Source: Microgenomates group bacterium
GTDB taxonomy: Bacteria; Patescibacteriota; Microgenomatia; UBA1400; MFAQ01
Direction: 5' to 3'
Assembly: GCA_049303575.1 (NCBI GenBank)
Contig: JBAQNH010000002.1
Location: forward strand, 316,541 to 380,540
Length of the DNA stretch: 64,000 bases
The number at the start of each line of letters is the position of its first letter. The first letter of the stretch is position 1. The notes beneath the pieces were generated by a model that did no database searches, was not told the origin of the DNA, and was given only the letters and a program-made list of their open reading frames with translations. This document shows, piece by piece, positions 33,231 to 46,908 of this stretch. The translations under genes and the position numbers were made by a program.

Positions 33231-34328
33231 TCAACCTCGGATTAACAGTTTTGTGGAGCAGGGCAGCAGTTTTTCCACAATTCCCATCTTTATAGCTTCT
33301 TTTTCGGTGAGCTTGTCACAAATATCCAAGAGTGCTTTGTTGGAAAGCCCTACTCCAGCCAACTCAAGATCCGACTCCTCCATCGGCATTTCTGGTCCTC
33401 CCCAAAAAGTTCCTGTCCAGTTACATCGGATGCAGGCTTTTCCTAGGTTTTCCCCAAACATACCACTCATCAGGGCGTGTAGCTCGAAATCAGCTGCCTG
33501 GTTTTGGTTCCGGGGATAGGGAGAATAATATCGCAGAGGTGGTTGCGTATCTAAAAGCACTCCTGCCACTCCTGCCACAAACTCCACTCCTTTTTCTTTA
33601 CATAATTTTTCAATTACTTCGAGTCCGAATCTCGTTGCCATTGGTGCGATAATCACCACTTTATTTGGTAACCGTCCCATTTCTTCCAATTTTTCAATCA
33701 TCGCCACATGTTGCATTCCGGAAGCCACCGGATCACACAAAAACAAAGTTTGTAAGGTTTGGCCAAATCCTTCTAAATTAGGCTCCGACGCAAAATACGC
33801 TGTTCTATTGTATTCATTTTCTGCCGGCTTGTGACTAATGCCCACCATCGTCGTTGGTAAGTTTTCTCTTGTGGTCAGATAGATTGCCTTTTGCATTTGG
33901 GTCAGATGACCTTCTCGAGCGAAATAAATAATGCCGCTATTTTCCGAGTTTGCCTCCAAAATCGCCTCCTTAATTATTTTTGTCTGAGCTAGCTGGTACA
34001 CGGCAATCTCCATATCTATCTGTGCCGGAACTCCCAGATGAAATCTCGGGAGGACAAACTTAAGTTTCCTGTTTTCAACATCGGGAATAAAACACCCTGC
34101 TCCACTTACCGCCTCCGCTTCTGGAGATGACACTATCGAGATATTTTTTCTCTTTTCTCCATCCAAATTTATTTCCAAAACAGACAGACTTGTATAAGTT
34201 CCAATCCAATGGGAATATGCCTCAGAATTTCTAACGGACAAGCAAGATCTCGAAAAAGAAAACTGTTTTTCCGAGGCTTCGACCTCTTTTGCTAAGCTAT
34301 AAAAAAGACCCTCTTTCATAAGGGCCAA
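33231..34328 (-). CDS. Hypothetical protein with phosphoribosyltransferase-like segment
   Basis: LFLCDPVASGMQ resembles the UPRTase PRPP-binding loop (xxDPMLATGGS). The rest is unassigned. Confidence 0.3.
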   Translation of the reverse strand: MALMKEGLFYSLAKEVEASEKQFSFSRSCLSVRNSEAYSHWIGTYTSLSVLEINLDGEKRKNISIVSSPEAEAVSGAGCFIPDVENRKLKFVLPRFHLGVPAQIDMEIAVYQLAQTKIIKEAILEANSENSGIIYFAREGHLTQMQKAIYLTTRENLPTTMVGISHKPAENEYNRTAYFASEPNLEGFGQTLQTLFLCDPVASGMQHVAMIEKLEEMGRLPNKVVIIAPMATRFGLEVIEKLCKEKGVEFVAGVAGVLLDTQPPLRYYSPYPRNQNQAADFELHALMSGMFGENLGKACIRCNWTGTFWGGPEMPMEESDLELAGVGLSNKALLDICDKLTEKEAIKMGIVEKLLPCSTKLLIRG

Positions 34329-34462
34329 AAATACTTGTTTCTAATATCTCGCAAACAAAAAACCAGGTATGTTTTTTTCATCTCCTGGAATTTCAGTATA
34401 ACTTTCTTTTTCTACTAAATCAAATTTTAGATTCTTCAAAAAAGGATACTGATAGGAGGTGC

Positions 34463-34879
34463 TTAAGTATTATTTTGAACTTTCTCAATCTTAAATTTGT
34501 GCCCATTTAATTCATACTCGAAGCCTACTTCTTTTCCTATAATAATTTTTGAAAGTGGGGTGTCTTCGCTTATCAGGGTAATTCCATCAATCGTTATTCC
34601 TCCTAAGCCATCTGGGACAATAAAAAATCTATATCTTGTGCCATTACTGAGATTAAGAAGGTCATAGATGGTCTGAAACTCTCCAATTCTTCTCTTTAAT
34701 TGCTGAATACTCCTTTTCTCCTCCAGCAAGCTGTTATAGAGCTGGTTGGCAACTTGCCTTGTCTGGTCATGTTGAGACTCCATTGGAGTGGCACTATTAT
34801 CACGTTCAAAGGCAACATGTTTAATGCTGTTTTCTACAGATTCAATTTTCTCGTTTAGGATGCTGGACAAGTCAATCAC
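34463..34879 (-). CDS. GreA/GreB-family transcript cleavage factor paralog (divergent N-terminus)
   Basis: It has a C-terminal FKBP-like Gre domain (RFFIVPDGLGGITIDGITLISEDTPLSKIIIGKEVGFEYEL) preceded by a coiled coil. Confidence 0.55.
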   Translation of the reverse strand: MIDLSSILNEKIESVENSIKHVAFERDNSATPMESQHDQTRQVANQLYNSLLEEKRSIQQLKRRIGEFQTIYDLLNLSNGTRYRFFIVPDGLGGITIDGITLISEDTPLSKIIIGKEVGFEYELNGHKFKIEKVQNNT

Positions 34880-34896
34880 AAAGTTAAATTATACAG

Positions 34897-35182
34897 TGGC
34901 TCACCACTCAGTAGAATTGCCTCGCGGTTTGCCAACTGCTTGCCGGCAGTATTACGGTCGCGCGAGACGAATTTTGTATCCCGCCTGCGGGCGGGATGAT
35001 TTGCCTTCGGCAAAGTGCCAACTTCGCATTCAGCGATTGTGGCGAAGCTCTCTCAATATATGGCTCGTTTCACAATCTCGCCATATAAATATCAACTAGT
35101 TAGGAGAGTATTTTACTATCTAACATTTAATGGTTGAGATATCATTGTCCTGACGGCAAAAATGCCTGCTTCTCAGGCACAA
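34897..35182 (+). repeat. Structured repeat copy A (modules Y+Z, long form, + orientation)
   Basis: It is about 90% identical to 38475-38791. It contains atcccgcc-UGCG-ggcgggat and uugcc-UUCG-ggcaa tetraloop hairpins and a terminal ugccug-cuucu-caggca hairpin. Confidence 0.75.
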
Positions 35183-35223
35183 TGAACACAGGTTTAAATT
35201 AAGAACTATTAATGTTAATATAA

Positions 35224-35862
35224 ATGCATATGGAAGAATCCACTGAGGGTATTGAACTAAATGATAAAAAATCTACTACGTCTGTCGAGAAGACAAGGAC
35301 AAGATGGGAAGAACTTAGTATTGGTGCCAAAAAAAGTCTAGACAAGTTGTTTAAGCTTGGAGAGTATAAAGAAATATCATTAGCTGAGGCTATTGGACGT
35401 ATTGATAAAGCTCCTTCAATTATTGAAGACAAAGGAGTGAGTGTTTTTGGTCATGAAGTCGAAGACCCCCTAGCCTTTACGGTGAAATATTTGCAAGAAT
35501 CAATGAAAATACTGACAAAAAAAGAAGGTGATAGTGTAAATTGCGGTAGATTGTACGAAGTGCTTGGAGATATTTTTGCAAAAGATACATCCCATGACGA
35601 AAAAGTAGATAGGCGCGAGTGGGATGAATTTATAATCGCACAATATGACGAAGCGATGCGAATATACAATGGGGCAGGAGATACAAGAAGATATTGGGAT
35701 GTTGACCTAAAGAATAATGTAATTAAGGGTGGCGTAGAAGATGTTGTTCTATCGAATGGGGAACACTATGGCTACAGGAAAGACTTACTTAATATGTTTG
35801 CTGAGGAGAGAAGAAAAAGAAGAGAAGAAGATCATAATATGCATCGAAATAAGAGCGTATAA
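35224..35862 (+). CDS. Hypothetical protein (212 aa), first gene of two-gene island operon
   Basis: ORF only. Its stop lies 8 bp before the next start. Confidence 0.35.
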   Translation: MHMEESTEGIELNDKKSTTSVEKTRTRWEELSIGAKKSLDKLFKLGEYKEISLAEAIGRIDKAPSIIEDKGVSVFGHEVEDPLAFTVKYLQESMKILTKKEGDSVNCGRLYEVLGDIFAKDTSHDEKVDRREWDEFIIAQYDEAMRIYNGAGDTRRYWDVDLKNNVIKGGVEDVVLSNGEHYGYRKDLLNMFAEERRKRREEDHNMHRNKSV

Positions 35863-35869
35863 ATGAGGT

Positions 35870-37600
35870 ATGGATGATGCAGTGGGAGGTTTTGAGATAG
35901 AAACAACAGATAATAATACTCCAAAAGCGGAAGCGGTGGAGAAACAAACTTCGAAAATTGAGGTGAAAGACGGTCGTGGAGAAAAAGCCGATGTAATACA
36001 AACGGCAGAATTCAAAACAAAACTTGAAAATGATAAAGTTGAAGAAAAGCTGACACAGTTTGAAAATTTAGTAGGAAAATACACAAAACAAAAGGTTTCG
36101 GAAGGATTTAAAATCAATGTCGTTTATGGTTCTGCCGGAAATGGAGAGGTGGTAGATGGAGTTCTTTCAGTGAATTTACCAACTCAAAACGAAATAGACA
36201 TTGTTCAAAATGATGAGAGAGCAAAACCATTTTTGGATGTACTGACAAAAGCGGGTACAACGTATAAGGAATTTTCATTGGCACTAGCTTCTTCAACGAC
36301 GATACACGAATCAGAACATATGATTATTGACAGTAGACCAAATTCACAACTAGCAAGGGATTTTGAAAGTGCTCAACCTCTTGATCAAAAAATTATTCTC
36401 GATGAAGCAGGCCACGCGTTGTCGCTTCTTGATGAAGGAATTACATACGCATTTCAAATGGAAATAGATAGTGGAAGCGAATTATTCCAGAAACTGGAGG
36501 GGGATAAACCACCGTCAGAGGAAAGTTTTACAATATCAACCAGAAAACGACTGGGTGAGATTCTCAGGCCAAAATTGAAAGAGTATATCGATAATGGAAA
36601 CGATATAGATGGAGATTTTTTAAAGTTTGCGGGTGAGGAGATGAAGAAACTGGGTATCGAAAAATATGTAGCGGAAGCGGAAAACGAGAGAAGAGAGAAA
36701 ATGGTTTGGAGGGAGGCAGAACCAGTGCTAAATGATTGGGAAGGCAGATTGGCGTCATATGAAGAAAAACACCGCACACAGATATCTAAATCATTAGGCA
36801 TTATGGCTCATCTATTTGGAAAAAATACTCCGGAAAAAATCAACGTCGACCTTCATTACTTGGCAAGAAGAGACAGCTCGAAAGGTGAACCTGTTTCTAA
36901 CTTAGTTGACAACAATCTATTAGCAAAAAATGATACAGACGTTATTTACTGGCTTGGTAAGGTCACTCGATTATCTAGTGATGGTCCAGAACAAATTGAG
37001 GAAGAAGAAAGAAGACAAACAGCAAAAATAATACATGAAATGATTCATCAGGATTTTCAAAGTGAAAACAGTGTATTTAAAGACGTGTTGAATGAGTCAA
37101 ACAATAATCCGGAGATTATTGAATTAAGGAAAGAACTTATGTCGGGTCAAGCCAACTATCTTGAACCAGAAGCTGAACTTACAGCCATCTATCTGGAACA
37201 ATACGCAGATAAAATTTTAAAGGAAGAAACTTCTAATGATGGAACATCCACAAGTCAACAAATAATTGACTATCGGTTAGATAATGATAGGTTTCAAGAA
37301 ATTTTCAATGCGGTTATAGAAGCAGATGACGCAGAAAAGTGGAAAGATGGCGGTCCGTATAGAAGCACACATGATGGTTGGAAAGGTTTATATACAGAAA
37401 AAAATGAAAACATCGTTTCTACGGCTCCAGAAGCTAGTAATCAACCTCGACCTCCTCACGAGCTTTCAATCTACGAGCTAGGAACAAAAATAACCGATTT
37501 TTCTCTAATCGAAAAGTATGTTATAGAAGGAAAACAGATGGATTTACTCTTTGTAAAGGAACTGTACAAACTGTTTTTAGCTCAAAAAAATACTAGGTGA
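35870..37600 (+). CDS. Hypothetical acidic protein with two HExxH motifs (possible duplicated metallopeptidase-like fold)
   Basis: 576 aa with TIHESEHMIID (around residue 146) and IIHEMIHQDF (around residue 390). No signal peptide is present. Confidence 0.4.
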   Translation: MDDAVGGFEIETTDNNTPKAEAVEKQTSKIEVKDGRGEKADVIQTAEFKTKLENDKVEEKLTQFENLVGKYTKQKVSEGFKINVVYGSAGNGEVVDGVLSVNLPTQNEIDIVQNDERAKPFLDVLTKAGTTYKEFSLALASSTTIHESEHMIIDSRPNSQLARDFESAQPLDQKIILDEAGHALSLLDEGITYAFQMEIDSGSELFQKLEGDKPPSEESFTISTRKRLGEILRPKLKEYIDNGNDIDGDFLKFAGEEMKKLGIEKYVAEAENERREKMVWREAEPVLNDWEGRLASYEEKHRTQISKSLGIMAHLFGKNTPEKINVDLHYLARRDSSKGEPVSNLVDNNLLAKNDTDVIYWLGKVTRLSSDGPEQIEEEERRQTAKIIHEMIHQDFQSENSVFKDVLNESNNNPEIIELRKELMSGQANYLEPEAELTAIYLEQYADKILKEETSNDGTSTSQQIIDYRLDNDRFQEIFNAVIEADDAEKWKDGGPYRSTHDGWKGLYTEKNENIVSTAPEASNQPRPPHELSIYELGTKITDFSLIEKYVIEGKQMDLLFVKELYKLFLAQKNTR

Positions 37601-37658
37601 AGATACGTCTGACGAGTTCCCTAAATCCACTTAAGATAATAATATAAGATACATTAAG

Positions 37659-37837
37659 TTTTGCGTTTTCTTTTCATTTTCGTACGACTGCGGTAGTGCA
37701 TTCGAGCCGATGTGGAGTTTATCCGCCTTTGGCGGAGCAGGCAGTTGGCGAACCGCTAGGCCATTAGACCGAGCGGTGAGCCATTAAGTTAGTAATTCTG
37801 TTGGAAATAGGTCCGAACTTCGTTATAACACCTCACA
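37659..37837 (-). repeat. Structured repeat copy C (modules W+Y'+X', inverted orientation, ends at precise X terminus ...ttataacacctcaca)
   Basis: The reverse complement of 37738-37837 matches 38421-38520, the start of copy B. The 5' part (ttttgcgttttcttttc...tgcggtagtgc...ttcgagccgatg) matches 44930-44985. Confidence 0.7.
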
Positions 37838-37982
37838 TATTTTGTGACCCCCCAGGGTTGCTGGAATGGAACCACATTTGGGAAGAACTCAAATCGATCT
37901 ACCGCACGACTAGTCACCCTCAAACTCCAGCCCAATCTTACTACCAATAGGTTATGGAACTATCGATAAAACACAACACTTA

Positions 37983-38402
37983 TTAAACCTGATTAGTTCT
38001 GGTTAAGAAATCCAATAATCCTGCACTAACAAACTCTCTACACTCCTCACTATCAGTATTCTCATGAGTTTCTAACCACTTATCAAGCAATAGCCCCATT
38101 TCAGTAAACTGTCCGTCTACATCAATAACTTTAACTCTTGGATTTTCTGGAATATCAACCTCAACCCAAGTTTTTTTGTCAGTCTTGAAATCATAACTCC
38201 AATGTCCCCAGTTTCCTTGTTCGTTCATCCTGCCAAGTCCAATCTCTAATCCATTTGGGTAAACCAAAGAATATGCTTCATCAACAAACATAGATGGATC
38301 ATGTCCGGCAAGATTCAAATCGTATGTATTGTTGAATACGACTTTGATAACTTCAAACTCTCTCTTCTCCTTTACTGGTTCATTTTCACTCATAATAAAC
38401 AC
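37983..38402 (-). CDS. Hypothetical protein (139 aa) bracketed by inverted X termini
   Basis: Clean ORF with no motif. It lies within the 583-bp segment between X' (ending 37837) and X (starting 38421). Confidence 0.35.
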   Translation of the reverse strand: MFIMSENEPVKEKREFEVIKVVFNNTYDLNLAGHDPSMFVDEAYSLVYPNGLEIGLGRMNEQGNWGHWSYDFKTDKKTWVEVDIPENPRVKVIDVDGQFTEMGLLLDKWLETHENTDSEECREFVSAGLLDFLTRTNQV

Positions 38403-38420
38403 ATTGTATCACTAGTAATT

Positions 38421-38791
38421 GTGAGGTGTTATAACGAAGTTCGGACCTATTTCCGACAGAATTACTAACTTAATGGCTCACCGCTCGGCCTAACGGCCTC
38501 GCGGTTCGCCAACTGCCTGTCGGCAGTATTACGGTCGCGCGATACGAATTCTGTATCCCGCCTGCGGGCGGGATGATTTGCCTTCGGCAAAGTGCCAACT
38601 TCGTTGTCACATCTTTATGTTCGTCACAAGATCGCCTTGAGCGATTGTGACGAAGCTCTCTCAATTATGGCTCGTTTACCAATCTCGCCATATAAATATC
38701 AGCTAGTTAGGAGAGAATTTTACTATCTGATATTTTAGGATTGAGATAGCATTTGGCCTGTCGGCCAAAGTGCCTGCTTCGCAGGCACAAT
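38421..38791 (+). repeat. Structured repeat copy B (modules X+Y+Z, full long form, + orientation)
   Basis: It starts with tgtgaggtgttataacgaag. It contains the same UGCG and UUCG tetraloop hairpins as copy A, plus an extra ggcc-uaac-ggcc hairpin and a 24-nt insertion. Confidence 0.75.
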
Positions 38792-38907
38792 AAGACGTTA
38801 TTTGGGTACTCGTGATAATAAAAACACACTTTTTAATCTCTATTAACTGGTTAGATTCTTGGGCATTATATCCTTAACAATCCCGTTAGGGTAAAATAAG
38901 ACCAAAT

Positions 38908-39420
38908 ATGAAGAATAATTTGTTGATAAGTCTCCTTATGTGTTTGATGATATCCATCATACTTTTTGCTTATGCCCCAAAAATCTTGGCGGAAGAAACT
39001 TGTGTTGTTGAGCCAATTTCTTCATTTGATGACAGCTCGTCATGTAGATATACCTCGTATAGAGGGTCTGATGATAATTTTTATGAGTCTTGTTATCAAA
39101 AATATCTACTAAGAAAAAATGATTGGGAGATAAGGTGTTTTAGATATTGGGACGACAAAAACAAGATTACCCCAAGTACGAATCAAACACCAACGGTTGC
39201 ACCTGTAATTCAGAACACTCCTCCAGCAACCACTCCAAGTCCATCACCCATTAAAAAAATAATCAAGAAAATTATTACTCCTACCCCAACAGAAGAAATC
39301 GCAAGTAGTTCAGGATCAACATTTAATACCGCCACAGTTTCAGGAATAACAACATCAAAAAACGGGTTCTTGAGCTGGATATTGAAAATATTTAGAATAC
39401 TTAATATATTGAAGGATTAA
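38908..39420 (+). CDS. Hypothetical secreted protein with Cys-containing N-domain and Pro/Thr-rich linker
   Basis: A signal or TM segment is followed by a Cys-rich segment, then TPSTNQTPTVAPVIQNTPPATTPSPSP, then a hydrophobic C-terminus. Confidence 0.35.
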   Translation: MKNNLLISLLMCLMISIILFAYAPKILAEETCVVEPISSFDDSSSCRYTSYRGSDDNFYESCYQKYLLRKNDWEIRCFRYWDDKNKITPSTNQTPTVAPVIQNTPPATTPSPSPIKKIIKKIITPTPTEEIASSSGSTFNTATVSGITTSKNGFLSWILKIFRILNILKD

Positions 39421-39457
39421 AAATTGTATTCTCTCTAATTCATAATAATCTCCAACA

Positions 39458-40129
39458 CTACCTTATTTTTTCTTGCACTTGTTTACTCTTATCCTCAACC
39501 AAATATTTACCTAAATTACATTCTTGACACCGAGTTGCTAAATTGTCTACTGAATTACCCCCACCATCTTCTGGTCTGACAATGTGATCCATTGATAATA
39601 GTTTACCGTCTTTTGATCCTAAACCACAATCTACACACTTAAAGTTATCTCTTTTGAGCACCATATACCTAGTTGCTGGTCCAATCGATTTTCTAAATTC
39701 TCCCGCTTTAATTGCTTTTTTTAAATGGCTTAGGTCAATTCTTCCTCTTGATAGAGCTAATCTATGGGCTACTTGAACTGTTCTTAGTATACCTAACAGA
39801 CCAACGTACCTCTGGATACTTCGTACCGTGACTATTAGATCAAGCTTATCTTTAATCTCACTACAAGAATATCCATCTTGGTATAAATTTCTAATTTCGT
39901 TTTCATAAATTGATAATTTACTACTCCTAATTCTATTCTCTCTTGTCTTTACTGATGCTTTAGTACTTAACCCTTCATTCCTTTTCAGCTTCATTACCAG
40001 GGTTTTTTCTTTTAACCAATTCATAATTTTATGACTATATCTTAATGGATATTGTTTCCTTATTTCATACATGGGAATGCCCTCGCTGTATAGCTTCAAT
40101 ATCTCAAATTTATTTTCAGACCATTTCAT
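39458..40129 (-). CDS. HNH endonuclease with N-terminal HTH-like region
   Basis: The HNH motif is CVDCG...DHIVRPEDGGGNSVDNLATRCQECNLGK. Confidence 0.6.
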   Translation of the reverse strand: MKWSENKFEILKLYSEGIPMYEIRKQYPLRYSHKIMNWLKEKTLVMKLKRNEGLSTKASVKTRENRIRSSKLSIYENEIRNLYQDGYSCSEIKDKLDLIVTVRSIQRYVGLLGILRTVQVAHRLALSRGRIDLSHLKKAIKAGEFRKSIGPATRYMVLKRDNFKCVDCGLGSKDGKLLSMDHIVRPEDGGGNSVDNLATRCQECNLGKYLVEDKSKQVQEKIR

Positions 40130-40136
40130 TCGAATT

Positions 40137-40424
40137 CTATACTAATTGATTACTTAAAAGATAAGAGTATACAGAAGTACAAAAAGCAGCAAAATAACCA
40201 AAAGCTTGAACAACGTTTATTGTTCGATTCAATTTATTACTGTCATCTATATAAATTCCAAAATCTTCAACAAATTCACTCATCCCCATTTTTACTCCGT
40301 TAATAGTTTTTATTTCCCCCTTATTTTTTAGTTTAGGGATTTTTCTAGTAGCTTGATAAAAATGAAATATTGTCAACATCAAGAAGATAAAACTGAAGAC
40401 AATCCAAAGAAGCTGATTATTCAT
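40137..40424 (-). CDS. Hypothetical small membrane protein (95 aa, 2 TM)
   Basis: Hydrophobic segments lie at both ends. Confidence 0.3.
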   Translation of the reverse strand: MNNQLLWIVFSFIFLMLTIFHFYQATRKIPKLKNKGEIKTINGVKMGMSEFVEDFGIYIDDSNKLNRTINVVQAFGYFAAFCTSVYSYLLSNQLV

Positions 40425-40526
40425 ATCTTATGATACAACCTAGTGATAATAATCCCAGAACATTGCTTTGCTTTTGTATAAAATCAAAAAATCAAAATGT
40501 TTTATCAATAGACTATAATTTGATTA

Positions 40527-41390
40527 ATGGAAACTGAAAAATCACCCAAGAGAAGTTTGAGAAAGATATTTCGAAATGTGTGGTTATATTCTTTAATTCT
40601 CTTCATCGTTGGGTTAATAGGATTTAGATTTTTGGGATGGGAAGCTGGTTTTAGTAGAACAGCAACCATCGTAATTATGGGTGCATCAGCTTTGGTTGGT
40701 GGAATATCTTTTTTGACATGGATTTCAATCCTAATCTTCTCAAATAAATTTTCTCGAATCATCATAATACTATTGGGGATTTTTATATCATCTTTATACG
40801 CTTTAACCATATATTCAGTCACTTATATTTTTGTCTACAGCCGTGTATCTCAAGGAAGTATGGATACACTGGTTGATCTTCAATATATTCTTCCATTACT
40901 CATTTTTGGTCTCACCTTAGGTGTTTGGTTGAAAACAAAGCCGTTATTGATAAAAGGAATCGTTATCGCTGGGTTATTGGTCACATACTTAGCGGGAAGA
41001 AATTATGCAGTCGAGGCATATAAACCTCTTACCCAAGCCTTTAATTTTATTGACCGGGCTAATTCTACTGAAGGGTTGGCTTGGACAAATGAACCCGATG
41101 ATAATAAGTATTTGGAAGGAGAAAGAAAATACGTAGCTTTATACAAGCAAGCTTCCGAATCAATTAAAAATGATGTTTTTCGCTCTTGGCCAAGACAATA
41201 TTTTAACGATCTCTACCGAGTAGAAAAGAAAGTTTTAGATTATGATGAACAGCTCTTTACAGGGAAATTGAAAATCTCTCAAGAAGAAATAGATAAAATC
41301 ACAGCAGAAGTCATGAAAGAAAGAAGTGATATTCTTGCTTCGGGGTTTTCAACTCCATATTGGACTGAGTTCTTCATGGTTGTTAAATAG
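40527..41390 (+). CDS. Hypothetical polytopic membrane protein (287 aa)
   Basis: It has 5 or more predicted TM helices in the N-terminal two-thirds, followed by a soluble C-terminus. Confidence 0.35.
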   Translation: METEKSPKRSLRKIFRNVWLYSLILFIVGLIGFRFLGWEAGFSRTATIVIMGASALVGGISFLTWISILIFSNKFSRIIIILLGIFISSLYALTIYSVTYIFVYSRVSQGSMDTLVDLQYILPLLIFGLTLGVWLKTKPLLIKGIVIAGLLVTYLAGRNYAVEAYKPLTQAFNFIDRANSTEGLAWTNEPDDNKYLEGERKYVALYKQASESIKNDVFRSWPRQYFNDLYRVEKKVLDYDEQLFTGKLKISQEEIDKITAEVMKERSDILASGFSTPYWTEFFMVVK

Positions 41391-41453
41391 TTATTCCCCA
41401 CGAGTGGGGTTATACAAATTACATTTTTTTCTTTAAATCATAATAATACTTAT

Positions 41454-42026
41454 ATGACTAAGTCAATGAAATATTTATTAGTCTCACTAATAGTAATTAC
41501 CGCATTCTGTGTTTTATTCAACAGACAATCAAAAAAAGTTCTTATCTCCAATACAACTTCTAATCTTGCAAAAACGTCTGTAGATGAAAAGACGGCTTGT
41601 TCTGATGTTATTGCCAAGTATGCAACAGAAAGTGGAATACCAAAATATTCAGGAGATATAAAACAGATCAATTTCAATTCTTTGCCAGAAGCAAAATTAT
41701 TTAAGACTACAATCACCAATTCGTACAAAGAAGGCGCAAACTTTGCCGGGCACTATAATTTATCATTGTGGGGATGCGGAACTGATTGTTTTGGAATGTC
41801 AATTACTGATGTAGAAACGGGGAACATAATAGAATATTCACCTATACATGAAGGCTATCATCTAGATGGCTATAACGTCGATAATCGCTTAATAGTATTC
41901 AATCCCATTAATGCGGGAATGGAAAGAAAAATATACAAATTATCCGAATCGAGCAATAAGACTAACGCTCTTGAACTAATATGTTCGGAAATATCTCAGA
42001 ACGACATGTATCAATATCCTGAATAA
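41454..42026 (+). CDS. Hypothetical secreted/signal-anchored protein (190 aa)
   Basis: The N-terminus has a signal-like hydrophobic segment. The rest is unassigned. Confidence 0.35.
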   Translation: MTKSMKYLLVSLIVITAFCVLFNRQSKKVLISNTTSNLAKTSVDEKTACSDVIAKYATESGIPKYSGDIKQINFNSLPEAKLFKTTITNSYKEGANFAGHYNLSLWGCGTDCFGMSITDVETGNIIEYSPIHEGYHLDGYNVDNRLIVFNPINAGMERKIYKLSESSNKTNALELICSEISQNDMYQYPE

Positions 42027-42041
42027 TAATTAGCATATTTA

Positions 42042-42509
42042 TTGGTAATGAATAATCGAACTATAAAAAACATGAAACTAACTGAAGTTAAAAGCTGGAT
42101 TTTTAATAAATGCAAAAAAAATAGTGCGGCTATTAAAAAGATAACTTTGGGTCAATGGATAATAATTGCCTTATTGCTTTTAATATTATGGCAATTAATC
42201 GACGCTCCTATTTTTAGAATGCATTTCATTAAAAGAAGCTATATATTTGAAAAAAATAAAGGTGAATGTATCCTCAATTATGGATCACAGACATGCAGTG
42301 TGTCGTTTTATACTCGACCAAGTATATTTATCGTAATTACAAAACATGAAGGGGACGTCATTTTTGCAAAAAGCATTAATTTTTTAGGGAAATCTGTATT
42401 TAAAGACGGGACAGCCTATTGTCTCACTATACCGAAACCCAATTTCGTCACAGGATGTCGTTACAACGGAATAATATATAAGTTTGTTGACGTCAACGAA
42501 GAGAAATAA
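42042..42509 (+). CDS. Hypothetical membrane-anchored protein (155 aa)
   Basis: It has a single TM (WIIIALLLLILWQLI). Confidence 0.3.
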   Translation: MVMNNRTIKNMKLTEVKSWIFNKCKKNSAAIKKITLGQWIIIALLLLILWQLIDAPIFRMHFIKRSYIFEKNKGECILNYGSQTCSVSFYTRPSIFIVITKHEGDVIFAKSINFLGKSVFKDGTAYCLTIPKPNFVTGCRYNGIIYKFVDVNEEK

Positions 42510-42572
42510 ACTGAAAAACAAAAGAGTGAAAAAAGACGCAATCATATGCTTACAAATTTATAATCATGAAAT

Positions 42573-44915
42573 GTGAAACTGAAGAAAATCAAAAAAATCA
42601 AAGTTTACAAATCATTCCAAGATTTTTCTTGGCAACCTTTTTTAAATAATGAAACATTTCATGATGAAGTAAATATTATTTATGGCGAAAACGGAAGTGG
42701 CAAAAGCTCAATAGCCAATCTGTTAAAAAATGTTTCGGAAAATAAAGATTTTGGTAAATACAAACCAATCGAAGCGTGTTTAGTCTTTGATGACGGTGAA
42801 AAAAAATATCCAGTAAACAACGACTGGGATAATAAAATCCCAAAAGGTTCTATTTTGTTTTTTGATCATGAATTTGTTGACAAAAATGTTCATATGGGGA
42901 GTAGGCGAGATACAACACAAAACGGACAAGAACAGGAATCAGGCAAAATGATTATTGAGTTTGATAGCAACGCTATAAATTTGCGCGGTGTACGAGACGT
43001 TGCGAAAAAAGCGAAAGAGGAACAAGACCAGAAGATTAAAGATTTCAATTCAGCAAATAAGGATTACTTGTTCAATATTTTGACTGATGATGAAAAACTA
43101 TATTATCAAAACTATAAGGATAATACCGAAGATGAAATCAAAAAAGTAAAACAAGACTTGGAAAAAGAGAAAAGGGAAGCAGGAAAAAATTTTGAAATTG
43201 ATCAAGGCCTACAGAAGAAAGTCACGAGCATTCAGAGCGGAATAAAAAGTTTGCCGACAGAAGAAGTTGAAATCTCTCTTTCAGATATTGAAACCTATCA
43301 GAAAATTTTTGATTTTGATCTAAAGGAGCGGGCATCAATAAAGGCCGAACAAGATTTGATTGATAAAGTCAAAACGCACAAAATATTTTTTGAAACTGGT
43401 TTTGAAATCAGAAAAACACATCAAAACCGATGCCCTTTTTGTCAATCCGAAAACGAAGAAGCGGGGATTAAGAAAATTGTTGATTTGTTCAAGCAAATTT
43501 ATGACACGACATATAAAACACAGGCACAACAATTTGAAAAAGATAAACAAACCCTACTTGGTGAAATTTCACAAATTACGAAATCAGTCTCCGATTTTGA
43601 TTTGAATAATATTTTTCTAGAACTTAAAAAATTGGATCAAAACTATAAGATACCATATATCTACTCTGTTGAAGACGAAGAAATATACAAAAAGCCAGCT
43701 GTGAAAGAGATAAAAGATTTGAGCGATAAAATATCAAAACTTACAAAGCCAGACAAAGAGAACATCAAAGATCTTTATACAAAAGTAAAAACTGAATTTA
43801 AGGTAATTGAAGCGTTTTTCAAGGCAATTGGTGATTTCGTAGAACAAAGGAACAATCTAATTGTTAAATTCAAATCTGACAATACTGACGAAAAGCTTCA
43901 AGCACGAATTGCCACAAGCAGTAAAAGAATTGCTGAAGTTGAAAAAGTGTTGGTTTTTATCAATGGGAACAAGATAAAAGAGCAACAAAAGAAAGTGCAG
44001 AAAGAAAAGGAACTGAAAGTGATGCAAGATGTTTTAGCTACGTTAAAAATAGAATACGAAACGGCATTGAAAAATTATGAGGAACATTGCTCAACAAAAG
44101 CCTTTTCAAATCTATTGTCCAAAATTCAAGATTATTTCAAGAATTTCAATTTCAGTTTTAAGCTTAAATTGAAAACAGACCCAACAGGTAACAAAACCGA
44201 ATTTCCTTTTGCTTTCAAAGTTTTGGATTTTGAGGGCAACGAACGGGATTTTAATGAGGGGCTTTCTGAAGGGGAGATTCAGGTTTTGTCCCTTTGCTTT
44301 TTCTTTGCTTTTCTTGATATACAAAAAGAAAAAGATCAAAAAATACTTATTTTTGATGACCCAATCACGAGCTTGGATAGTAGCAATTTGAGCTATCTTG
44401 TTGATTTAATTTCAGAAGAACAAAATAACTTTTCACAAATATTTGTTTTTACCCACCACAGAACCTTTTTCAAATTTTTAAGAAAACGATTCGGACAACA
44501 AAAAATTGGGTGCAAGGAATTTAATGTCATTAGGAACAGAAAGGAGTTAGGCGGAAGCTTTTTATGTAAAAGTCATCAAACAGACTTTATGCCGTTGCTT
44601 AGAAATTTTGAAAGTGATTTGAGAAGTTGGTCTCCTTTAGATATAGAATTAAAAATAGTTGAGTACGGCCAGTATTTAAGATATGAGGTTGAAAAGTTCA
44701 TTAAGAACGAGCTGCTTCATATAAATGAAACAAAATTTGAAGATATTGTAGACGGAGTAAAAAACAACCAAAACATTAATGTTATAGATTTAGAAAAAAT
44801 TAAAGAAATATACTTATTTTGCAATTGGACAACTTCGCATGTCGATGTTGGTGATGATCATGGTCTTGATCAACTGAAAACTAAAATAATCGACTTTGTA
44901 TCCATAATTAATTAA
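42573..44915 (+). CDS. RloC/AAA_13-like Rad50-type ABC ATPase with coiled-coil CxxC zinc hook and C-terminal extra domain (candidate anticodon-nuclease/defense protein)
   Basis: It has a PrrC/RloC-like Walker A (IIYGENGSGKSSIANLL) and a long coiled coil containing HQNRCPFCQSE (CxxC hook). The ABC signature LSEGEIQ, Walker B ILIFDDP, D-loop SLD and H-loop FTHH follow. About 180 aa remain C-terminal of these motifs. Confidence 0.5.
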   Translation: MKLKKIKKIKVYKSFQDFSWQPFLNNETFHDEVNIIYGENGSGKSSIANLLKNVSENKDFGKYKPIEACLVFDDGEKKYPVNNDWDNKIPKGSILFFDHEFVDKNVHMGSRRDTTQNGQEQESGKMIIEFDSNAINLRGVRDVAKKAKEEQDQKIKDFNSANKDYLFNILTDDEKLYYQNYKDNTEDEIKKVKQDLEKEKREAGKNFEIDQGLQKKVTSIQSGIKSLPTEEVEISLSDIETYQKIFDFDLKERASIKAEQDLIDKVKTHKIFFETGFEIRKTHQNRCPFCQSENEEAGIKKIVDLFKQIYDTTYKTQAQQFEKDKQTLLGEISQITKSVSDFDLNNIFLELKKLDQNYKIPYIYSVEDEEIYKKPAVKEIKDLSDKISKLTKPDKENIKDLYTKVKTEFKVIEAFFKAIGDFVEQRNNLIVKFKSDNTDEKLQARIATSSKRIAEVEKVLVFINGNKIKEQQKKVQKEKELKVMQDVLATLKIEYETALKNYEEHCSTKAFSNLLSKIQDYFKNFNFSFKLKLKTDPTGNKTEFPFAFKVLDFEGNERDFNEGLSEGEIQVLSLCFFFAFLDIQKEKDQKILIFDDPITSLDSSNLSYLVDLISEEQNNFSQIFVFTHHRTFFKFLRKRFGQQKIGCKEFNVIRNRKELGGSFLCKSHQTDFMPLLRNFESDLRSWSPLDIELKIVEYGQYLRYEVEKFIKNELLHINETKFEDIVDGVKNNQNINVIDLEKIKEIYLFCNWTTSHVDVGDDHGLDQLKTKIIDFVSIIN

Positions 44916-44929
44916 CCCATAATAATTAA

Positions 44930-45210
44930 TTTTGCGTTTTCTTTTCTTTTTGCACTACTGCGGTAGTGCCGTTCGAGCCGATGTTTCGGCAGTTGTTGGC
45001 GAACCGCGAGGCCGACAGGCCGAGCGGTGAGCCAATTAAGTTAGCAATTCTGTTGGAAATAGGTCCGAACTTCGTTATAACACCTCACACTCAGAGAGTT
45101 TTCGCTCTCGTCAGGGTACATCGCCCGTGCGCCCGCCCTCGCACGGAGCGATGTGAAGGGCTTTTAAGTTGTATTACTATCAAAAAGAAAAAAGAAAAGA
45201 AAACGCAAAA
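44930..45210 (-). repeat. Structured repeat copy D (W+Y'+X' inverted) fused to an 80-bp inverted copy of the tRNA-Glu 3' trailer, bounded by 17-bp inverted repeats
   Basis: Bases 44930-45089 match copy C and are the reverse complement of the copy B start. Bases 45086-45165 are the reverse complement of 46691-46770. ttttgcgttttcttttc at 44930-44946 is the reverse complement of 45194-45210. Confidence 0.7.
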
Positions 45211-45276
45211 CGGGGGACAATTCCAGTTTGTCTTGGCTGTACTCTTTCGGGAAATATATGGTTAAATGAATGTAAG

Positions 45277-46908
45277 GTGAAATACATTTTGTATTGTCGA
45301 AAGAGTACCGATGAAAAAGACAAACAGGTCTTGTCCATTGAAGCTCAGATTGCTGAGCTTACCGAGTTCGCCATAAGGGAAAGGCTTGAGATAGTCGCCA
45401 CTTTCTCCGAATCAAAAACAGCCAAGACTCCAGGCAGACCAATCTTCAAGGAGGTGCTAAAGAAAATCGAAAGTGACGAGGCCGACGCCATTCTTTCCTG
45501 GCACCCCGATAGGTTGGCCAGAAACAGCATTGATGGCGGTTACCTCATCTATCTTCTCGACACAGGGAAGCTCCTTGACCTCAAGTTTCCTTCCTTTTGG
45601 TTTGATAACACTCCGCAAGGAAAGTTCATGCTCAACCTCGCTTTCGGTCAATCCAAATACTATGTCGATAATCTCTCGGAGAATGTTAAGCGTGGTCTTC
45701 GCCAAAAGATTAGGAATGGCGTCTGGCCTTCCCAAGCCCCTTATGGCTACTTGAATAATAAAATTACTCGGGGTATTGAAATCGATCCGGAAAAAAGCAA
45801 AGTCGTGAAAAAAGCCTTCGAAATCTTTGCAAAAGAAAAAGTTTCCTTCTCCGATGTTTCACTTCTTCTTGCCAAAGGCGGTATTCATAAAAGAAGTGGC
45901 AAACCAGTTGGTATCAGTCAAGTCCATAAAATGCTCACCAATCAGTTTTACATCGGCATCATGTCATATAACGGGGAATTTTTCGAAGGCAAACACGACC
46001 AATTCATCACTCGCCAACTCTTTAATAAGGTAAAGAGAAGACTAGAAGAAAAAGGCAACTCCAATTTCAAGTTTCGTGATTATGCTTTTTCCGGTCTCAT
46101 GCGTTGTGGGGAGTGTGGCGCGACTATTACGGCCGAAACTCACACCAAGCATTACAAAAACGGCACTCACCAAAAATTCGTGTATTACCGCTGTACCAAA
46201 AAGCTTAGACCTTGTTCACAACCATATTTACCAGAAGAAAAACTCAAAGATCAACTCCGAGGATTCATCTCCCTCGCCACACTCCCCAAACGCTGGGGGA
46301 ACGACTGGCTCAAGTGGTTGGAAAAAGACAAAGTCACGGGGCGGCAATCTGCAGATTCATTTTTTGAAAGATACAAACTAGATATACAAACCATTGATGG
46401 CAAACTCAACCTCTTACTTGATAGCTATCTTGATGGCACAATCAACTCTCAAACATACAAAGGCAAAAAGAACCAGCTCTTTACCGAGAAACAAAATCTA
46501 GAAGACAAGATAGCCAAAACAAAAGCAAAGGGAAGCAGTTGGCTCGAACCCATGACAGAATTCGTCTTTTGCGCTATACGAGCGCAAAAAATCGCGCGAC
46601 CGAATACTGCTAGCGAAGATCTGCGGATCTTCGCCAAAAACATCGGCTCGAACTTCTTTTTGAAAGATAAACAACTTACATGGGAGATGAAAAAGCCCTT
46701 CGCATCGCTCCGTGCGAGGGCGGGCGCACGGGCGATGTACCCTGACGAGAGCGAAAACTCTCTGAGTGTGATCCCGGCGGGAGTCGAACCCGCGATCTTT
46801 TGGATGAGAACCAAATGTCCTAGACCACTAGACGACGGGACCATGTCTGAACCTGTATATTGTACCAAATTAGTGCGCCAATTTGACTTGATAGGTTCAA
46901 AAGTGTAA
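45277..46908 (+). CDS. Large serine recombinase (resolvase-domain + recombinase-domain + zinc ribbon + coiled coil); 3' end reads antisense through tRNA-Glu
   Basis: The catalytic N-terminus is KYILYCRKSTDEKDKQVLSIEAQ (the YxRVSTxxQ-type motif with the Ser nucleophile). A recombinase domain and a zinc ribbon (CGECGATITAETH...YYRCTK) follow. The start is uncertain, either GTG at 45277 or TTG at 45289 after an AGGTGA. The ORF has no stop until 46908. Confidence 0.7.
   Translation: MKYILYCRKSTDEKDKQVLSIEAQIAELTEFAIRERLEIVATFSESKTAKTPGRPIFKEVLKKIESDEADAILSWHPDRLARNSIDGGYLIYLLDTGKLLDLKFPSFWFDNTPQGKFMLNLAFGQSKYYVDNLSENVKRGLRQKIRNGVWPSQAPYGYLNNKITRGIEIDPEKSKVVKKAFEIFAKEKVSFSDVSLLLAKGGIHKRSGKPVGISQVHKMLTNQFYIGIMSYNGEFFEGKHDQFITRQLFNKVKRRLEEKGNSNFKFRDYAFSGLMRCGECGATITAETHTKHYKNGTHQKFVYYRCTKKLRPCSQPYLPEEKLKDQLRGFISLATLPKRWGNDWLKWLEKDKVTGRQSADSFFERYKLDIQTIDGKLNLLLDSYLDGTINSQTYKGKKNQLFTEKQNLEDKIAKTKAKGSSWLEPMTEFVFCAIRAQKIARPNTASEDLRIFAKNIGSNFFLKDKQLTWEMKKPFASLRARAGARAMYPDESENSLSVIPAGVEPAIFWMRTKCPRPLDDGTMSEPVYCTKLVRQFDLIGSKV
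46691..46768 (-). repeat. Native 3' trailer of tRNA-Glu (copy E), inverted partner of 45086-45165
   Basis: It contains the hairpins gagag-uuuucg-cucuc and ccgugcg-cccgcccu-cgcacgg. It is 68 nt identical to the upstream inverted copy. Confidence 0.7.
46769..46842 (-). tRNA. tRNA-Glu (anticodon CUC)
   Basis: Manual cloverleaf: acceptor GGUCCCG/CGGGAUC with one G-U pair. D-arm is GUCU-AGUGGUCUA-GGAC. Anticodon stem is UUUGG/CCAAA with loop UUCUCAU. T-arm is GCGGG-UUCGACU-CCCGC. Length is 74 nt, no CCA is encoded, and it resembles E. coli tRNA-Glu. Confidence 0.8.

What the first reader, a model, noticed from the sequence alone, without database searches (positions are those of the whole stretch)
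37659..38520. Single small gene bracketed by inverted copies of a precise repeat terminus; joined termini would form a perfect 2x28-bp palindrome
Copy C ends at 37837 with ...ggtccgaacttcgttataacacctcaca. Copy B begins at 38421 with tgtgaggtgttataacgaagttcggacc.... These are exact reverse complements, and the shared Y+X modules are about 95% identical.

The 583 bp between them carries one ORF of 139 aa (37983-38402, minus strand).

The same terminus, ...cacctcaca, recurs at 45089 joined to different flanking DNA. Three different flanks at one precise end is the hallmark of a recombination or transposition boundary.

Deleting the 583-bp insert would restore a perfect palindromic site. That resembles a serine-recombinase att core with a central CA/TG dinucleotide. 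The small gene would then be a minimal inserted cassette.
Basis: seen in the sequence. Interest (0 to 1): 0.65.

Follow-up and report, generated by a model that had tools for sequence, protein, structure and literature searches.

The report
Stacked recombinase islands beside tRNA-Glu
The small gene is not a cassette dropped into a palindrome: it is DNA caught between the ends of two stacked mobile islands that a large serine recombinase most likely inserts next to a tRNA-Glu gene. The repeated 'terminus' is that enzyme's attachment-site arm, which also encodes the enzyme's own tail and ends a conserved, folded RNA-like element.

Summary
Arms 37738-37837 and 38420-38519 are 96% complementary, and the 28-mer terminus occurs exactly three times (none expected by chance).

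The cassette-in-a-palindrome reading does not hold. A public read-contig (L001) joins the 139-aa gene flank directly to the 3' end of tRNA-Glu through a shared TCACA. It therefore lacks exactly 8,347 bp (38420-46766). That segment is a complete island: full-length repeat element, cargo, a second inverted site copy, and a large serine recombinase (LSR) gene.

The terminus 'X' is the P' arm of the LSR attP site. Its antisense strand encodes the LSR tail ...SV|RCYNEVRTYFQQNY*. The left copy (37658-37837) belongs to an older island of the same layout that has no LSR.

Across 62 fetched loci from candidate-phyla-radiation (CPR) bacteria, 69 X sites end at CCTCAC[A/C/T]. Of these, 29 continue into the canonical partner T and 40 into 28 different flanks. 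No X-X' palindrome exists.

The family is large. Most homologues read into an antisense tRNA, and the LSR gene sits between near-identical 81-bp inverted repeats. The 370-600-nt element ending in X is structured and matches no Rfam family.

Verdict: a new variant of LSR tRNA-targeting islands, stacked in tandem. Interest is moderate.

The parts
34897..35182 (-). Copy D: 5' part (Z + hairpin Y) of the structured element, lacking the terminal X module. It is the left end of the older, LSR-less island E1.
   Evidence: 88-96% identical to copy B. Island left edge is about 34433, from homology with L031.
35224..37600 (+). Cargo of island E1: ORFs of 212 aa and 576 aa, no family hits.
37658..37837 (+). 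Copy C: W-Y-X block (W 37658-37743, Y 37744-37783, X 37783-37837). It is the right end of island E1. The terminus ...CACCTCACA ends at 37837.
   Evidence: The same W-Y-X block lies upstream of LSR genes in many loci.
37838..38419 (-). The 582-bp 'insert'. It holds a 136/139-aa gene (37983-38393/38402) with its own extended -10 (TGATACAAT, 38403-38411). It also holds a conserved 120-nt remnant (37844-37963) that begins GTGACCCC, like the reverse complement of the tRNA-Glu 3' end.
   Evidence: In L001 this segment lies between X(C) and tRNA-Glu.
38420..38790 (-). Copy B: full-length structured element Z-Y-X (X' 38420-38474, Y' 38474-38513, Z' 38514-38790). Its 3' end, the P' arm of attP, forms attL of island E2, with core TGTGA at 38420-38424.
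38908..44915 (.). Cargo of island E2: seven ORFs, including an HNH endonuclease (39458-40129, -) and a 780-aa AAA_13 / PDC-S06-like ATPase (42573-44915, +). GC content is 31-34%.
44930..45210 (+). Copy A plus partner: W (44930-44994), Y (44995-45034), X (45035-45089), T (45090-45165), W' (45189-45210, a 22-nt perfect inverted repeat with 44930-44951). This is an intact attP copy in inverted orientation just upstream of the LSR gene.
   Evidence: X-T is the commonest continuation of X (29 of 69 sites).
45277..46908 (+). Large serine recombinase ORF (likely GTG start at 45277; open from 45169). It runs through T' and the core, then on into the antisense of tRNA-Glu.
46691..46771 (+). T' (46691-46766; P arm of attP; LSR codons ...KKPFASLRARAGARAMYPDESENSLS) plus core TGTGA (46767-46771). 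This is attR of island E2 and the right arm of the 81-bp inverted repeat.
   Evidence: On the tRNA-sense strand it is terminator-like.
46768..46842 (-). tRNA-Glu(CUC), the integration target. Its 3' end ...GGGATCACA shares TCACA with X.

Best explanation
The repeated unit is the end of a family of genomic islands that a large serine recombinase (LSR) inserts at the 3' end of tRNA-Glu in Collierbacteria-like CPR bacteria.

The sites. attP lies at the very 3' end of the LSR gene. The P arm is T' (the last coding stretch of the gene). The core is TGTGA. The P' arm is X', which supplies the last 15 codons and the stop codon. attB is the tRNA-Glu 3' end (...GGGATCACA) plus whatever follows it.

Island E2. 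Integration placed an 8,347-bp island (38420-46766) between the 139-aa gene segment and tRNA-Glu. This created attL (flank|X', 38420) and attR (T'|antisense tRNA, 46767). It gave the tRNA the island's terminator T. It also replaced the LSR tail RCYNEVRTYFQQNY* with a tRNA-antisense read-through.

Island E1. The left copy (37658-37837) is the W-Y-X block of an older island (about 34433-37837). E1 has the same layout and orientation as E2 but no LSR. In E1 the 582-bp segment occupies the slot between X and tRNA-Glu that the LSR cassette fills in complete islands.

The two X ends therefore face each other only because a new island was stacked next to an old one.

Shown: the junctions, the alternative state, the family-wide architecture, the coding constraint on X, and the structure of the element. 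Inferred: that this LSR catalyses the events, the exact crossover dinucleotide, and the history of E1.
For: (1) Alternative state. L001 is 100% identical to window 47004-46767 and to 38424-37601, joined through a 5-nt overlap TCACA. This is exactly the attB predicted if 38420-46766 is removed. A 31-mer assembler cannot join sequences through 5 nt, so reads must span the junction.

(2) Precise boundary. Of 69 X sites in 62 fetched loci plus the window, 29 continue into T and 40 continue into 28 distinct flank classes. All diverge after CCTCAC[A/C/T]. Many of the flanks are intrinsic terminators, as expected for DNA that used to follow a tRNA.

(3) Recurrent architecture. The layout Z-Y-X / cargo / W-Y-X-T-LSR-T' / tRNA-Glu / greA is seen in L024, L038, L049, L051, L055, L027, L013, L023, L050 and L062.

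(4) X is coding on its antisense strand. In the LSR frame it always reads (V)RCYNE(V/I)RTY(F/Y)Q..* with the stop codon kept despite nucleotide changes. L059/P0022 shows the uninterrupted form, LSR...FFEV|RCYNEIRTYFRDHY*, followed by Y'Z'.

(5) Family level. There are 7,165 homologues with E<1e-30. Of the best 120, at least 75 end in an antisense-tRNA translation (GxEP). Six carry the free tail motif Y..(I/V)RT.F.

(6) The LSR has the domain triad Resolvase + Recombinase + Zn_ribbon_recom.

(7) Homologues of the 139-aa gene lie in unrelated contexts without any of the modules.

(8) No X-X' pair lies within 60 nt in any locus.
Against: - There is no direct evidence that this LSR is active.
- L001 is a single adapter-flanked unitig from another sequencing run. 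E2 cargo genes are not on record in that collection. L001 may therefore be a strain that never had E2, rather than an excision product.
- The sequence following the tRNA (the B' arm) differs widely between junctions. That is unusual for LSR attB sites, which normally need both arms.
- The crossover dinucleotide within TCACA is undefined.
- How E1 lost its LSR cassette, or gained the 582-bp segment, is not explained. Recombination between the inverted X-T and T'-tRNA sites would invert, not delete.
- The role of the second, inverted attP copy is unknown.
Confidence: 0.72

Rival explanations
1. First reader's model. The 583-bp segment is a minimal gene cassette that a serine recombinase inserted into a perfect 2x28-bp palindromic att site (X-X'). 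Excising it would restore that site.
For: - Exact inverted 28-mers sit at both inner ends.
- An LSR gene is nearby.
- The slot between X and a convergent partner end holds different contents in relatives: 3 nt in L021, about 35 nt in L016, 573 nt in L001 and 1.68 kb in most loci.
Against: - Database-wide scans with X itself recovered 54 loci, and none has adjacent inverted X copies.
- In L001 the right partner of the segment is tRNA-Glu, not X'.
- X' at 38420 is contiguous with an 8.35-kb island that is absent from L001.
- The gene occurs without the repeats elsewhere.
- A perfectly palindromic site would give a self-complementary centre and no polarity.
Confidence: 0.04
2. Window 38420-45089 is a 6.67-kb non-autonomous transposon bounded by about 100-bp terminal inverted repeats with TGTGA...TCACA tips (Tn7/Mu-like ends). 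The 583 bp is simply the DNA between two such transposons.
For: - Arms 38420-38519 and 44990-45089 are 95-96% complementary, with the precise ends facing outward.
- In other loci either Z or W adjoins the Y-X next to the LSR (L020, L045 against most others). That is what an invertible or independently moving unit would give.
Against: - There is no transposase and no target-site duplication: the flanks are GTAAT and CTCAG.
- The segment missing from L001 ends at 46766, not 45089, so the mobile unit includes the LSR cassette.
- X is the coding tail of the LSR and is normally continuous with T.
Confidence: 0.07
3. Z-Y-X is a housekeeping structured RNA gene of the host that islands target, as tRNA and tmRNA genes are targeted. 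The partial copies are displaced 3' fragments left by integrations.
For: - The element is strongly structured, with compensatory changes.
- It is conserved across many metagenome-assembled genomes and is usually followed by an intrinsic terminator.
- Partial 3' copies exist (copies C and A).
Against: - Its neighbours are never conserved.
- One genome can hold several copies (CAZENT: L003, L007, L012).
- It is linked to the LSR/tRNA-Glu module wherever the contigs are long enough.
- Its 3' end is the antisense of the LSR tail codons.
- The partial copies are inverted, not direct.
- It matches no Rfam family.
Confidence: 0.08
4. The bracket results from homologous recombination or inversion between dispersed repeat copies, or from mis-assembly across repeats. 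No site-specific recombination is involved.
For: - Repeats of 100 bp at 95-96% identity could mediate rearrangements or confuse assemblers.
- The inverted-repeat arms around the LSR gene are homogenised.
Against: - The L001 junction uses only a 5-nt identity, at exactly the same position as 40 independent junctions in other genomes.
- The same architecture recurs in independent assemblies from many samples.
Confidence: 0.04

Closest known systems
Large serine recombinase (serine integrase) integrative elements, e.g. phiC31, Bxb1, A118/LI integrase prophages, Tn4451 TnpX (from general knowledge)
   Same: - Resolvase + Recombinase + zinc-ribbon domain triad.
- Conservative recombination with only a few bases of identity between attP and attB.
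- No target duplication.
- Hybrid attL and attR sites.
- attP lies next to the recombinase gene.
   Different: - The target is the 3' end of a tRNA gene. LSRs classically target protein-coding genes.
- The crossover lies inside the recombinase ORF, so the C-terminal tail changes on integration.
- A second inverted attP copy puts the gene between 81-bp near-identical inverted repeats.
- The attB arm distal to the tRNA is highly variable.
Tycheposons and tandem island arrays at tRNA genes in Prochlorococcus (bioRxiv 10.1101/2020.12.28.424599)
   Same: - Cargo-carrying elements integrate next to tRNA genes.
- New arrivals push older ones further into the island.
- Degenerate remnants and att fragments are left scattered.
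- A minority of these elements use large serine recombinases.
- Populations are heterogeneous for presence or absence.
   Different: - Here the att remnant is not a partial tRNA. It is the end of a 370-600-nt structured element that doubles as the LSR tail.
- No replication genes are seen.
- The host is a CPR bacterium.
SSV1-type archaeal integrases and integration-dependent gene truncation in mycobacteriophages such as BPs/Brujita (from memory, not checked here)
   Same: attP lies inside a gene of the element, so integration into a tRNA gene changes that gene's product.
   Different: - Those are tyrosine recombinases.
- In SSV1 the int gene is split in two.
- Here only the last 15 codons of a serine recombinase are exchanged.
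tDNA genomic islands made by tyrosine integrases (Islander-type; PMC4383910 abstract)
   Same: - tRNA 3' end used as target.
- The tRNA is left intact.
- Islands accumulate at one tRNA.
   Different: - There is no long direct repeat of the tRNA 3' part: only 5 nt are shared.
- No tyrosine integrase was found among the ORFs scanned in the island.
- The repeats that mark the ends are inverted.
Hin/Gin/Cin-type invertible segments
   Same: A serine recombinase gene associated with short inverted repeats whose arms evolve in concert.
   Different: - The repeats here flank the recombinase gene itself and are its own 3' end.
- Only one orientation was seen in about 12 loci.
- The enzyme is a large, not a small, serine recombinase.

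Membership tests
Large serine recombinase integrative element | Recombinase with N-terminal resolvase catalytic domain, Recombinase domain and zinc ribbon | tested here: met
   PF00239 5.2e-22, PF07508 3.8e-15, PF13408 4.9e-11 on window 45169-46908. N-terminal motif YCRKSTDEKDKQ, with the candidate catalytic serine, is read from the translation.
Large serine recombinase integrative element | Occupied and unoccupied target differ by exactly the element; attL and attR are hybrids of attP and attB | tested here: met
   L001 lacks exactly 8,347 bp and carries tRNA-Glu|flank. T'|X' (attP) is contiguous in L059 and L062. X|T occurs in 29 sites.
Large serine recombinase integrative element | Very short identity (2-bp crossover) between attP and attB; no target-site duplication | tested here: inconclusive
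   Identity is limited to TCACA (5 nt) and there is no duplication. Sequence alone cannot say which dinucleotide is exchanged.
Large serine recombinase integrative element | Catalysis of attP x attB by the encoded enzyme; a directionality factor for excision | not testable with these tools
   Needs a recombination assay. No candidate directionality factor was identified among the cargo ORFs.
Integron gene cassette / attC | IntI tyrosine recombinase; cassettes in direct orientation, each ending in an attC with RYYYAAC...GTTRRRY cores | tested here: not met
   The recombinase is a serine enzyme. The repeats bracketing the gene are inverted, and the same gene lacks them elsewhere.
TIR transposon / MITE / Tn7-like element | Transposase (DDE or TnsABC) and target-site duplication flanking terminal inverted repeats | tested here: not met
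   None of the ORFs scanned between the repeats (40527-41390, AAA_13 ATPase 42573-44915, HNH 39458-40129, 38908-39420) gave a transposase hit in Pfam, and the seven cargo ORFs gave no relevant PADLOC hit. The flanks differ. The missing segment in L001 is not the TIR-bounded unit.
tDNA island of a tyrosine integrase | Direct repeat of the tRNA 3' part (tens of nt) at the distal island end; tyrosine integrase gene | tested here: not met
   Only TCACA is shared at the E2 ends. Only an 8-9-nt tRNA-like fossil (GTGACCCC, 37844-37851) exists. No integrase other than the LSR was found among the island ORFs scanned; the 40137-40424, 41454-42026 and 42042-42509 ORFs were scanned against PADLOC only.
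Known RNA families (Rfam 15) | Match to a curated covariance model | tested here: not met
   Only tRNAs were found in the window and in 10 loci at gathering thresholds. Nothing relevant at E<=5 in 34300-39000.
Structured RNA gene (generic) | Conserved secondary structure with compensatory changes, strand asymmetry, promoter and terminator | tested here: inconclusive
   - 5' domain: 53 pairs, 97.8% paired, 9 pairs with double changes, and 0 of 500 shuffles reach the covariation score.
- G-U exceeds A-C by 24:7 (5' domain) and 38:14 (full length) on the Z-to-X strand.
- GNRA loops and terminators follow X.
- Promoter-like sites are no more frequent than chance.
- Transcription was not shown.
Serine-invertase switch | Both orientations of the segment between the inverted repeats occur | tested here: not met
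   The LSR points from X-T towards the tRNA in every locus where both sides can be read. The arms are nonetheless homogenised.

The most novel reading that the evidence does not exclude
This would be a previously undescribed architecture of a large CPR-wide LSR family, with three parts:
- attP sits inside the recombinase's own last codons, so that integration into a tRNA gene swaps the enzyme's C-terminal tail.
- The gene is kept between concertedly evolving inverted copies of its own 3' end.
- A new 370-600-nt structured RNA converges on that 3' end and overlaps it.

Together these would form a self-regulating switch that senses the integrated versus free state and controls integration, excision or capture of cargo. 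The RNA would act as an antisense regulator or cofactor.
Probability: 0.2. Interest if true: 0.75.

Novelty: new variant of a known kind. Interest (0 to 1): 0.55.

Why it matters
CPR/Patescibacteria have tiny genomes and few recognised mobile elements, so how they exchange genes is poorly understood. Several points follow from this locus.

- It exposes a large family of tRNA-targeting serine recombinases (thousands of homologues). They build stacked, cargo-carrying islands, here with a candidate defence ATPase.
- Their attachment site is embedded in the recombinase's own coding end.
- It gives exact attP and attB sequences that could be tested as new integration tools.
- It offers a natural case in which integration rewrites the enzyme's tail.
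- It reveals an uncatalogued structured RNA-like element tied to these islands.

For the scan itself, it shows that 'inward-facing precise repeat ends' can be the signature of tandem island accretion rather than of a cassette.

Tried and rejected
- Rfam at gathering and permissive thresholds: only tRNAs. I considered RNase P RNA, tmRNA, SRP RNA, group I/II introns, OMEGA/TnpB guide RNAs and retron RNAs. None fits the motif order, the tool results or the gene content.
- Viral contig scan with the terminus: no hit.
- Integron attC, Tn7-like and MITE readings: rejected (wrong recombinase type or no transposase hit, no target duplication).
- Looked for the excised circle, or for coexistence of E2, in the read collection via E2 cargo proteins: not on record. 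The GreA look-up gave only a short contig.
- Tried to derive the L021 'empty' junction and the loss of the LSR cassette from simple LSR crossovers between known sites. The predicted junctions do not match, so this is left unexplained.
- Tested the idea that the LSR cassette inverts between its 81-bp repeats. Only one orientation was seen.
- Looked for dyad symmetry between the T' and X arms and for a shared GGTYCGA motif with the tRNA T-arm. This is suggestive only and was not used as evidence.
- Pfam and PADLOC on the 139-aa protein: no hits.
- My earlier idea that copies D and C are halves of one element split by an inversion was replaced. The simpler reading is that E1 has the same layout as E2.
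Full report
**Observation.**

The window holds an inverted repeat with arms 37738-37837 and 38420-38519 (100 nt, 96% complementary, 582 nt apart). Its inner 28 nt, GGTCCGAACTTCGTTATAACACCTCACA, occur exactly three times: ending at 37837 (+), starting at 38420 (-), and ending at 45089 (+). None is expected by chance. The ORF between the arms is real, at 37983-38402 with a likely ATG at 38393.

**Module map.**

Comparing the copies gives these modules:
- X: the terminal 55 nt.
- Y: a 40-nt GC-rich hairpin with symmetric GA bulges.
- Z: about 280 nt, 5' of Y.
- W: about 65-85 nt, an alternative 5' partner of Y.
- T: 76 nt that follows X at 45090.

The copies are built from them as follows:
- Copy B (38790 to 38420, minus strand) is a full Z-Y-X.
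- Copy D (35182 to 34897, minus strand) is Z-Y without X.
- Copies C (37658-37837) and A (44930-45089) are W-Y-X.

Copy A is followed by T, then by a 22-nt perfect inverted copy of the start of W, then by a large serine recombinase gene with Resolvase, Recombinase and Zn_ribbon_recom domains. Next comes an inverted copy of T (46691-46766, 99% identical), which abuts the 3' end of tRNA-Glu(CUC) at 46768-46842. The whole stretch from about 34.4 to 46.8 kb lies between a conserved 365-aa gene and tRNA-Glu/greA. It includes a 31-34% GC segment.

**The decisive comparison.**

A look-up of the 136-aa protein returned one public read-contig, L001. L001 is 100% identical to window 47004-46767 (greA side and tRNA-Glu) and to window 38424-37601 (the small gene and copy C). 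The two parts are joined through a 5-nt overlap, TCACA.

In that DNA the 3' end of tRNA-Glu, ...GGGATCACA, is followed directly by ATTACTAGTG..., the flank of the small gene. The window therefore differs from L001 by exactly 8,347 bp, 38420-46766. That segment is copy B, seven cargo ORFs, copy A with T, the LSR gene and T'.

This is what conservative site-specific integration gives, with attB = tRNA-Glu|flank and attP = T'|X'. The products are attL = flank|X' at 38420 and attR = T'|tRNA at 46767. The crossover lies somewhere in the shared TCACA/TGTGA.

So the right-hand 'terminus' of the finding is the left end of a complete LSR island, which I call E2. It is not the edge of a 583-bp insert.

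**The terminus elsewhere.**

I scanned one genome per species and the JGI metagenomes with 20-23 nt of X. This gave 54 loci from Candidatus Collierbacteria, Paceibacterota and unclassified CPR metagenome-assembled genomes.

Adding loci fetched later, there are 69 X sites with enough flank. All keep ...ATAACACCTCAC and then one base (A, C or T). Of these, 29 continue into the T module. The other 40 continue into 28 unrelated flank classes. Many of those flanks are intrinsic terminators, as expected for DNA that originally followed a tRNA gene.

No locus has two X copies facing each other within 60 nt. An unoccupied X-X' palindrome, which these scans would have picked up, was therefore not found.

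**A recurrent island layout.**

Module maps show the same order in many independent contigs (L024, L038, L049, L051, L055, L027, L013, L023, L050, L062):
1. Z-Y-X pointing outwards.
2. Variable cargo.
3. W-Y-X-T.
4. The LSR gene.
5. T'.
6. Antisense tRNA-Glu.
7. greA.

Cargo genes are not shared between loci.

**What X and T are.**

The LSR ORF in the window has no stop before T'. It reads ...KKPFASLRARAGARAMYPDESENSLSV, crosses the core, and continues into the antisense of tRNA-Glu. If T' is joined to X' instead, the same frame reads ...SLSV|RCYNEVRTYFQQNY and stops inside X'.

Across all X variants this antisense frame is preserved: (V)RCYNE(V/I)RTY(F/Y)Q... The nucleotide differences are synonymous or conservative, and a stop codon is kept.

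A search with the LSR found 7,165 homologues at E<1e-30. Their conserved C-terminal region ends in ...S.SV. After that come one of two things:
- A translation of an antisense tRNA (the GxEP signature of the T-loop, from several different tRNAs), in at least 75 of the best 120.
- A short tail with the motif Y..(I/V)RT.F, in six of them (for example P0022, ...FFEV|RCYNEIRTYFRDHY).

The contig of P0022 (L059) shows the uninterrupted arrangement T-LSR-T'-X'-Y'-Z'.

Hence T' is the LSR's own 3' coding end (P arm). X' is its last 15 codons (P' arm). The crossover sits at the S-V codons.

**The left copy and the 582-bp segment.**

Window 34897-37837 has the same order and orientation as E2: Y'Z' (its X' lost), cargo on the plus strand, then W-Y-X. 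I read it as an older island of the same kind, E1, that no longer has an LSR.

In the L001 state the 582-bp segment lies between X of E1 and tRNA-Glu. That is the slot filled by T-LSR-T' in complete islands. The slot holds 3 nt in L021, a close relative whose greA product is 99% identical. It holds a 35-nt terminator in L016.

The segment itself has two parts. One is an ordinary small gene with its own extended -10 promoter. Its nine homologues occur without any of these modules in the two long contigs examined.

The other part is a 120-nt conserved remnant (37844-37963). It begins GTGACCCC, like the reverse complement of the tRNA-Glu 3' end. In other loci it is joined to T' (L060/P0024, L062/P0011) or stands alone (L031, L018).

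How E1 came to carry this segment instead of an LSR cassette is not explained. Recombination between the inverted X-T and T'-tRNA sites would invert rather than delete.

The two X ends face each other because E2 later integrated at the tRNA|segment junction. This tandem accretion, with decayed older elements, is the pattern described for tRNA-linked islands in Prochlorococcus (10.1101/2020.12.28.424599).

**The Z-Y-X element.**

Full-length copies are 368-603 nt. They differ by whole hairpins inserted at loops.

For the 5' 170 nt, RNAalifold predicts 53 pairs in six helices. Of the cells, 97.8% are paired and nine pairs show changes on both sides. No shuffle out of 500 reaches the observed covariation score, and sliding the partners collapses pairing to 31-43%.

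Three things point to the Z-to-X strand as the folded one: G-U outnumbers A-C (24:7 in the 5' domain, 38:14 over the full length), GNRA-type loops are present, and the consensus energy is better (-98 against -89 kcal/mol). That strand converges on the LSR 3' end and overlaps it.

The element matches no Rfam family. I could not show transcription, and promoter-like sites are at chance level.

**An unexplained regularity.**

In 13 loci the LSR gene sits between 80-85-bp inverted repeats (T plus core) spaced 1,524-1,527 bp apart. In eight of them the arms are 100% identical, while the median identity between loci is 95%.

A 59%-identical LSR (L063) has a 102-bp, 99% repeat of the same kind, with two different X-like tails outside it.

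The gene nevertheless has the same orientation in every locus where both sides can be read. An inversion switch is therefore not supported, and the role of the second attP copy is open.

**Verdict.**

Its central claim, a small cassette in a palindromic site, is wrong.

The best explanation is two stacked LSR islands at tRNA-Glu. I put confidence at about 0.7 for E2 and the nature of X, and lower for the history of E1.

Three features make this a new variant of a known kind, of moderate interest:
- attP embedded in the last codons of a tRNA-targeting LSR family.
- Concerted inverted copies of the LSR gene's 3' end flanking the gene.
- An uncatalogued structured element tied to the islands.

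Noticed in passing
window 42573-44915 (+): The 780-aa AAA_13 ATPase (Pfam 8.9e-36) matches the PADLOC candidate defence family PDC-S06 (2.4e-32) and LmuB-like models. It is probably a defence gene carried as island cargo.
   Followed up: partly
window 39458-40129 (-): A 223-aa HNH endonuclease sits in the same cargo, with a homologue (61% identical) in the cargo of L023. It has only a weak REase_II hit in PADLOC.
   Followed up: partly
window 34463-34879 (-): A 138-aa ORF at the island's left edge has a weak GreA/GreB C-terminal hit (0.0022, below the Pfam cut-off). The true greA lies at 47055-47528, on the other side of tRNA-Glu.
   Followed up: no
window 44971-44983 and 46641-46653: W contains GTTCGAGCCGATG, the reverse complement of the LSR codons for NIGSN. 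The sequence after T also resembles the antisense of the LSR 3' end. The W-Y-X-T-W' block therefore looks like a rearranged fossil of an inverted LSR 3' end.
   Followed up: partly
proteins P0010-P0129 (LSR homologues): Most homologues of this LSR across Patescibacteria have annotated C-termini that are translations of antisense tRNA genes of several kinds. Gene callers therefore report artificial, state-dependent tails for this family.
   Followed up: partly
L063 4804-4905 and 6396-6497; 1322-1541: A 59%-identical LSR is also flanked by a 102-bp, 99% inverted repeat of its own 3' end, with two different tail-coding arms outside it. A second LSR in the same locus reads into antisense tRNA-Lys(ttt), next to tRNA-Glu(ttc).
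   Followed up: partly
L005, L019, L035, L048 (alignment): A small palindrome, CCTGCCGGCAGG(CAGG), is inserted in different loops of the Z-Y-X element, twice in L035. It looks like a tiny mobile hairpin.
   Followed up: no
L010 4892-5060; L011 (oriented) 503-660: In LSR-free relatives, tRNA-Glu is followed by a terminator, then an inverted T-arm-like GGGAGTCGAA..., then a direct copy of the last 18 nt or so of the tRNA. These look like fossils of earlier events at the same hot spot.
   Followed up: no
window 38403-38432 (-): In the window state, the -35-like hexamer ATAACA of the small gene's promoter-like site lies inside X'. The TG-extended -10 lies in the 582-bp segment. Integration of E2 therefore changed the upstream half of that promoter region.
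   Followed up: no
window 8245-8551: Two adjacent 148-nt direct repeats at 72% identity, unrelated to the finding.
   Followed up: no
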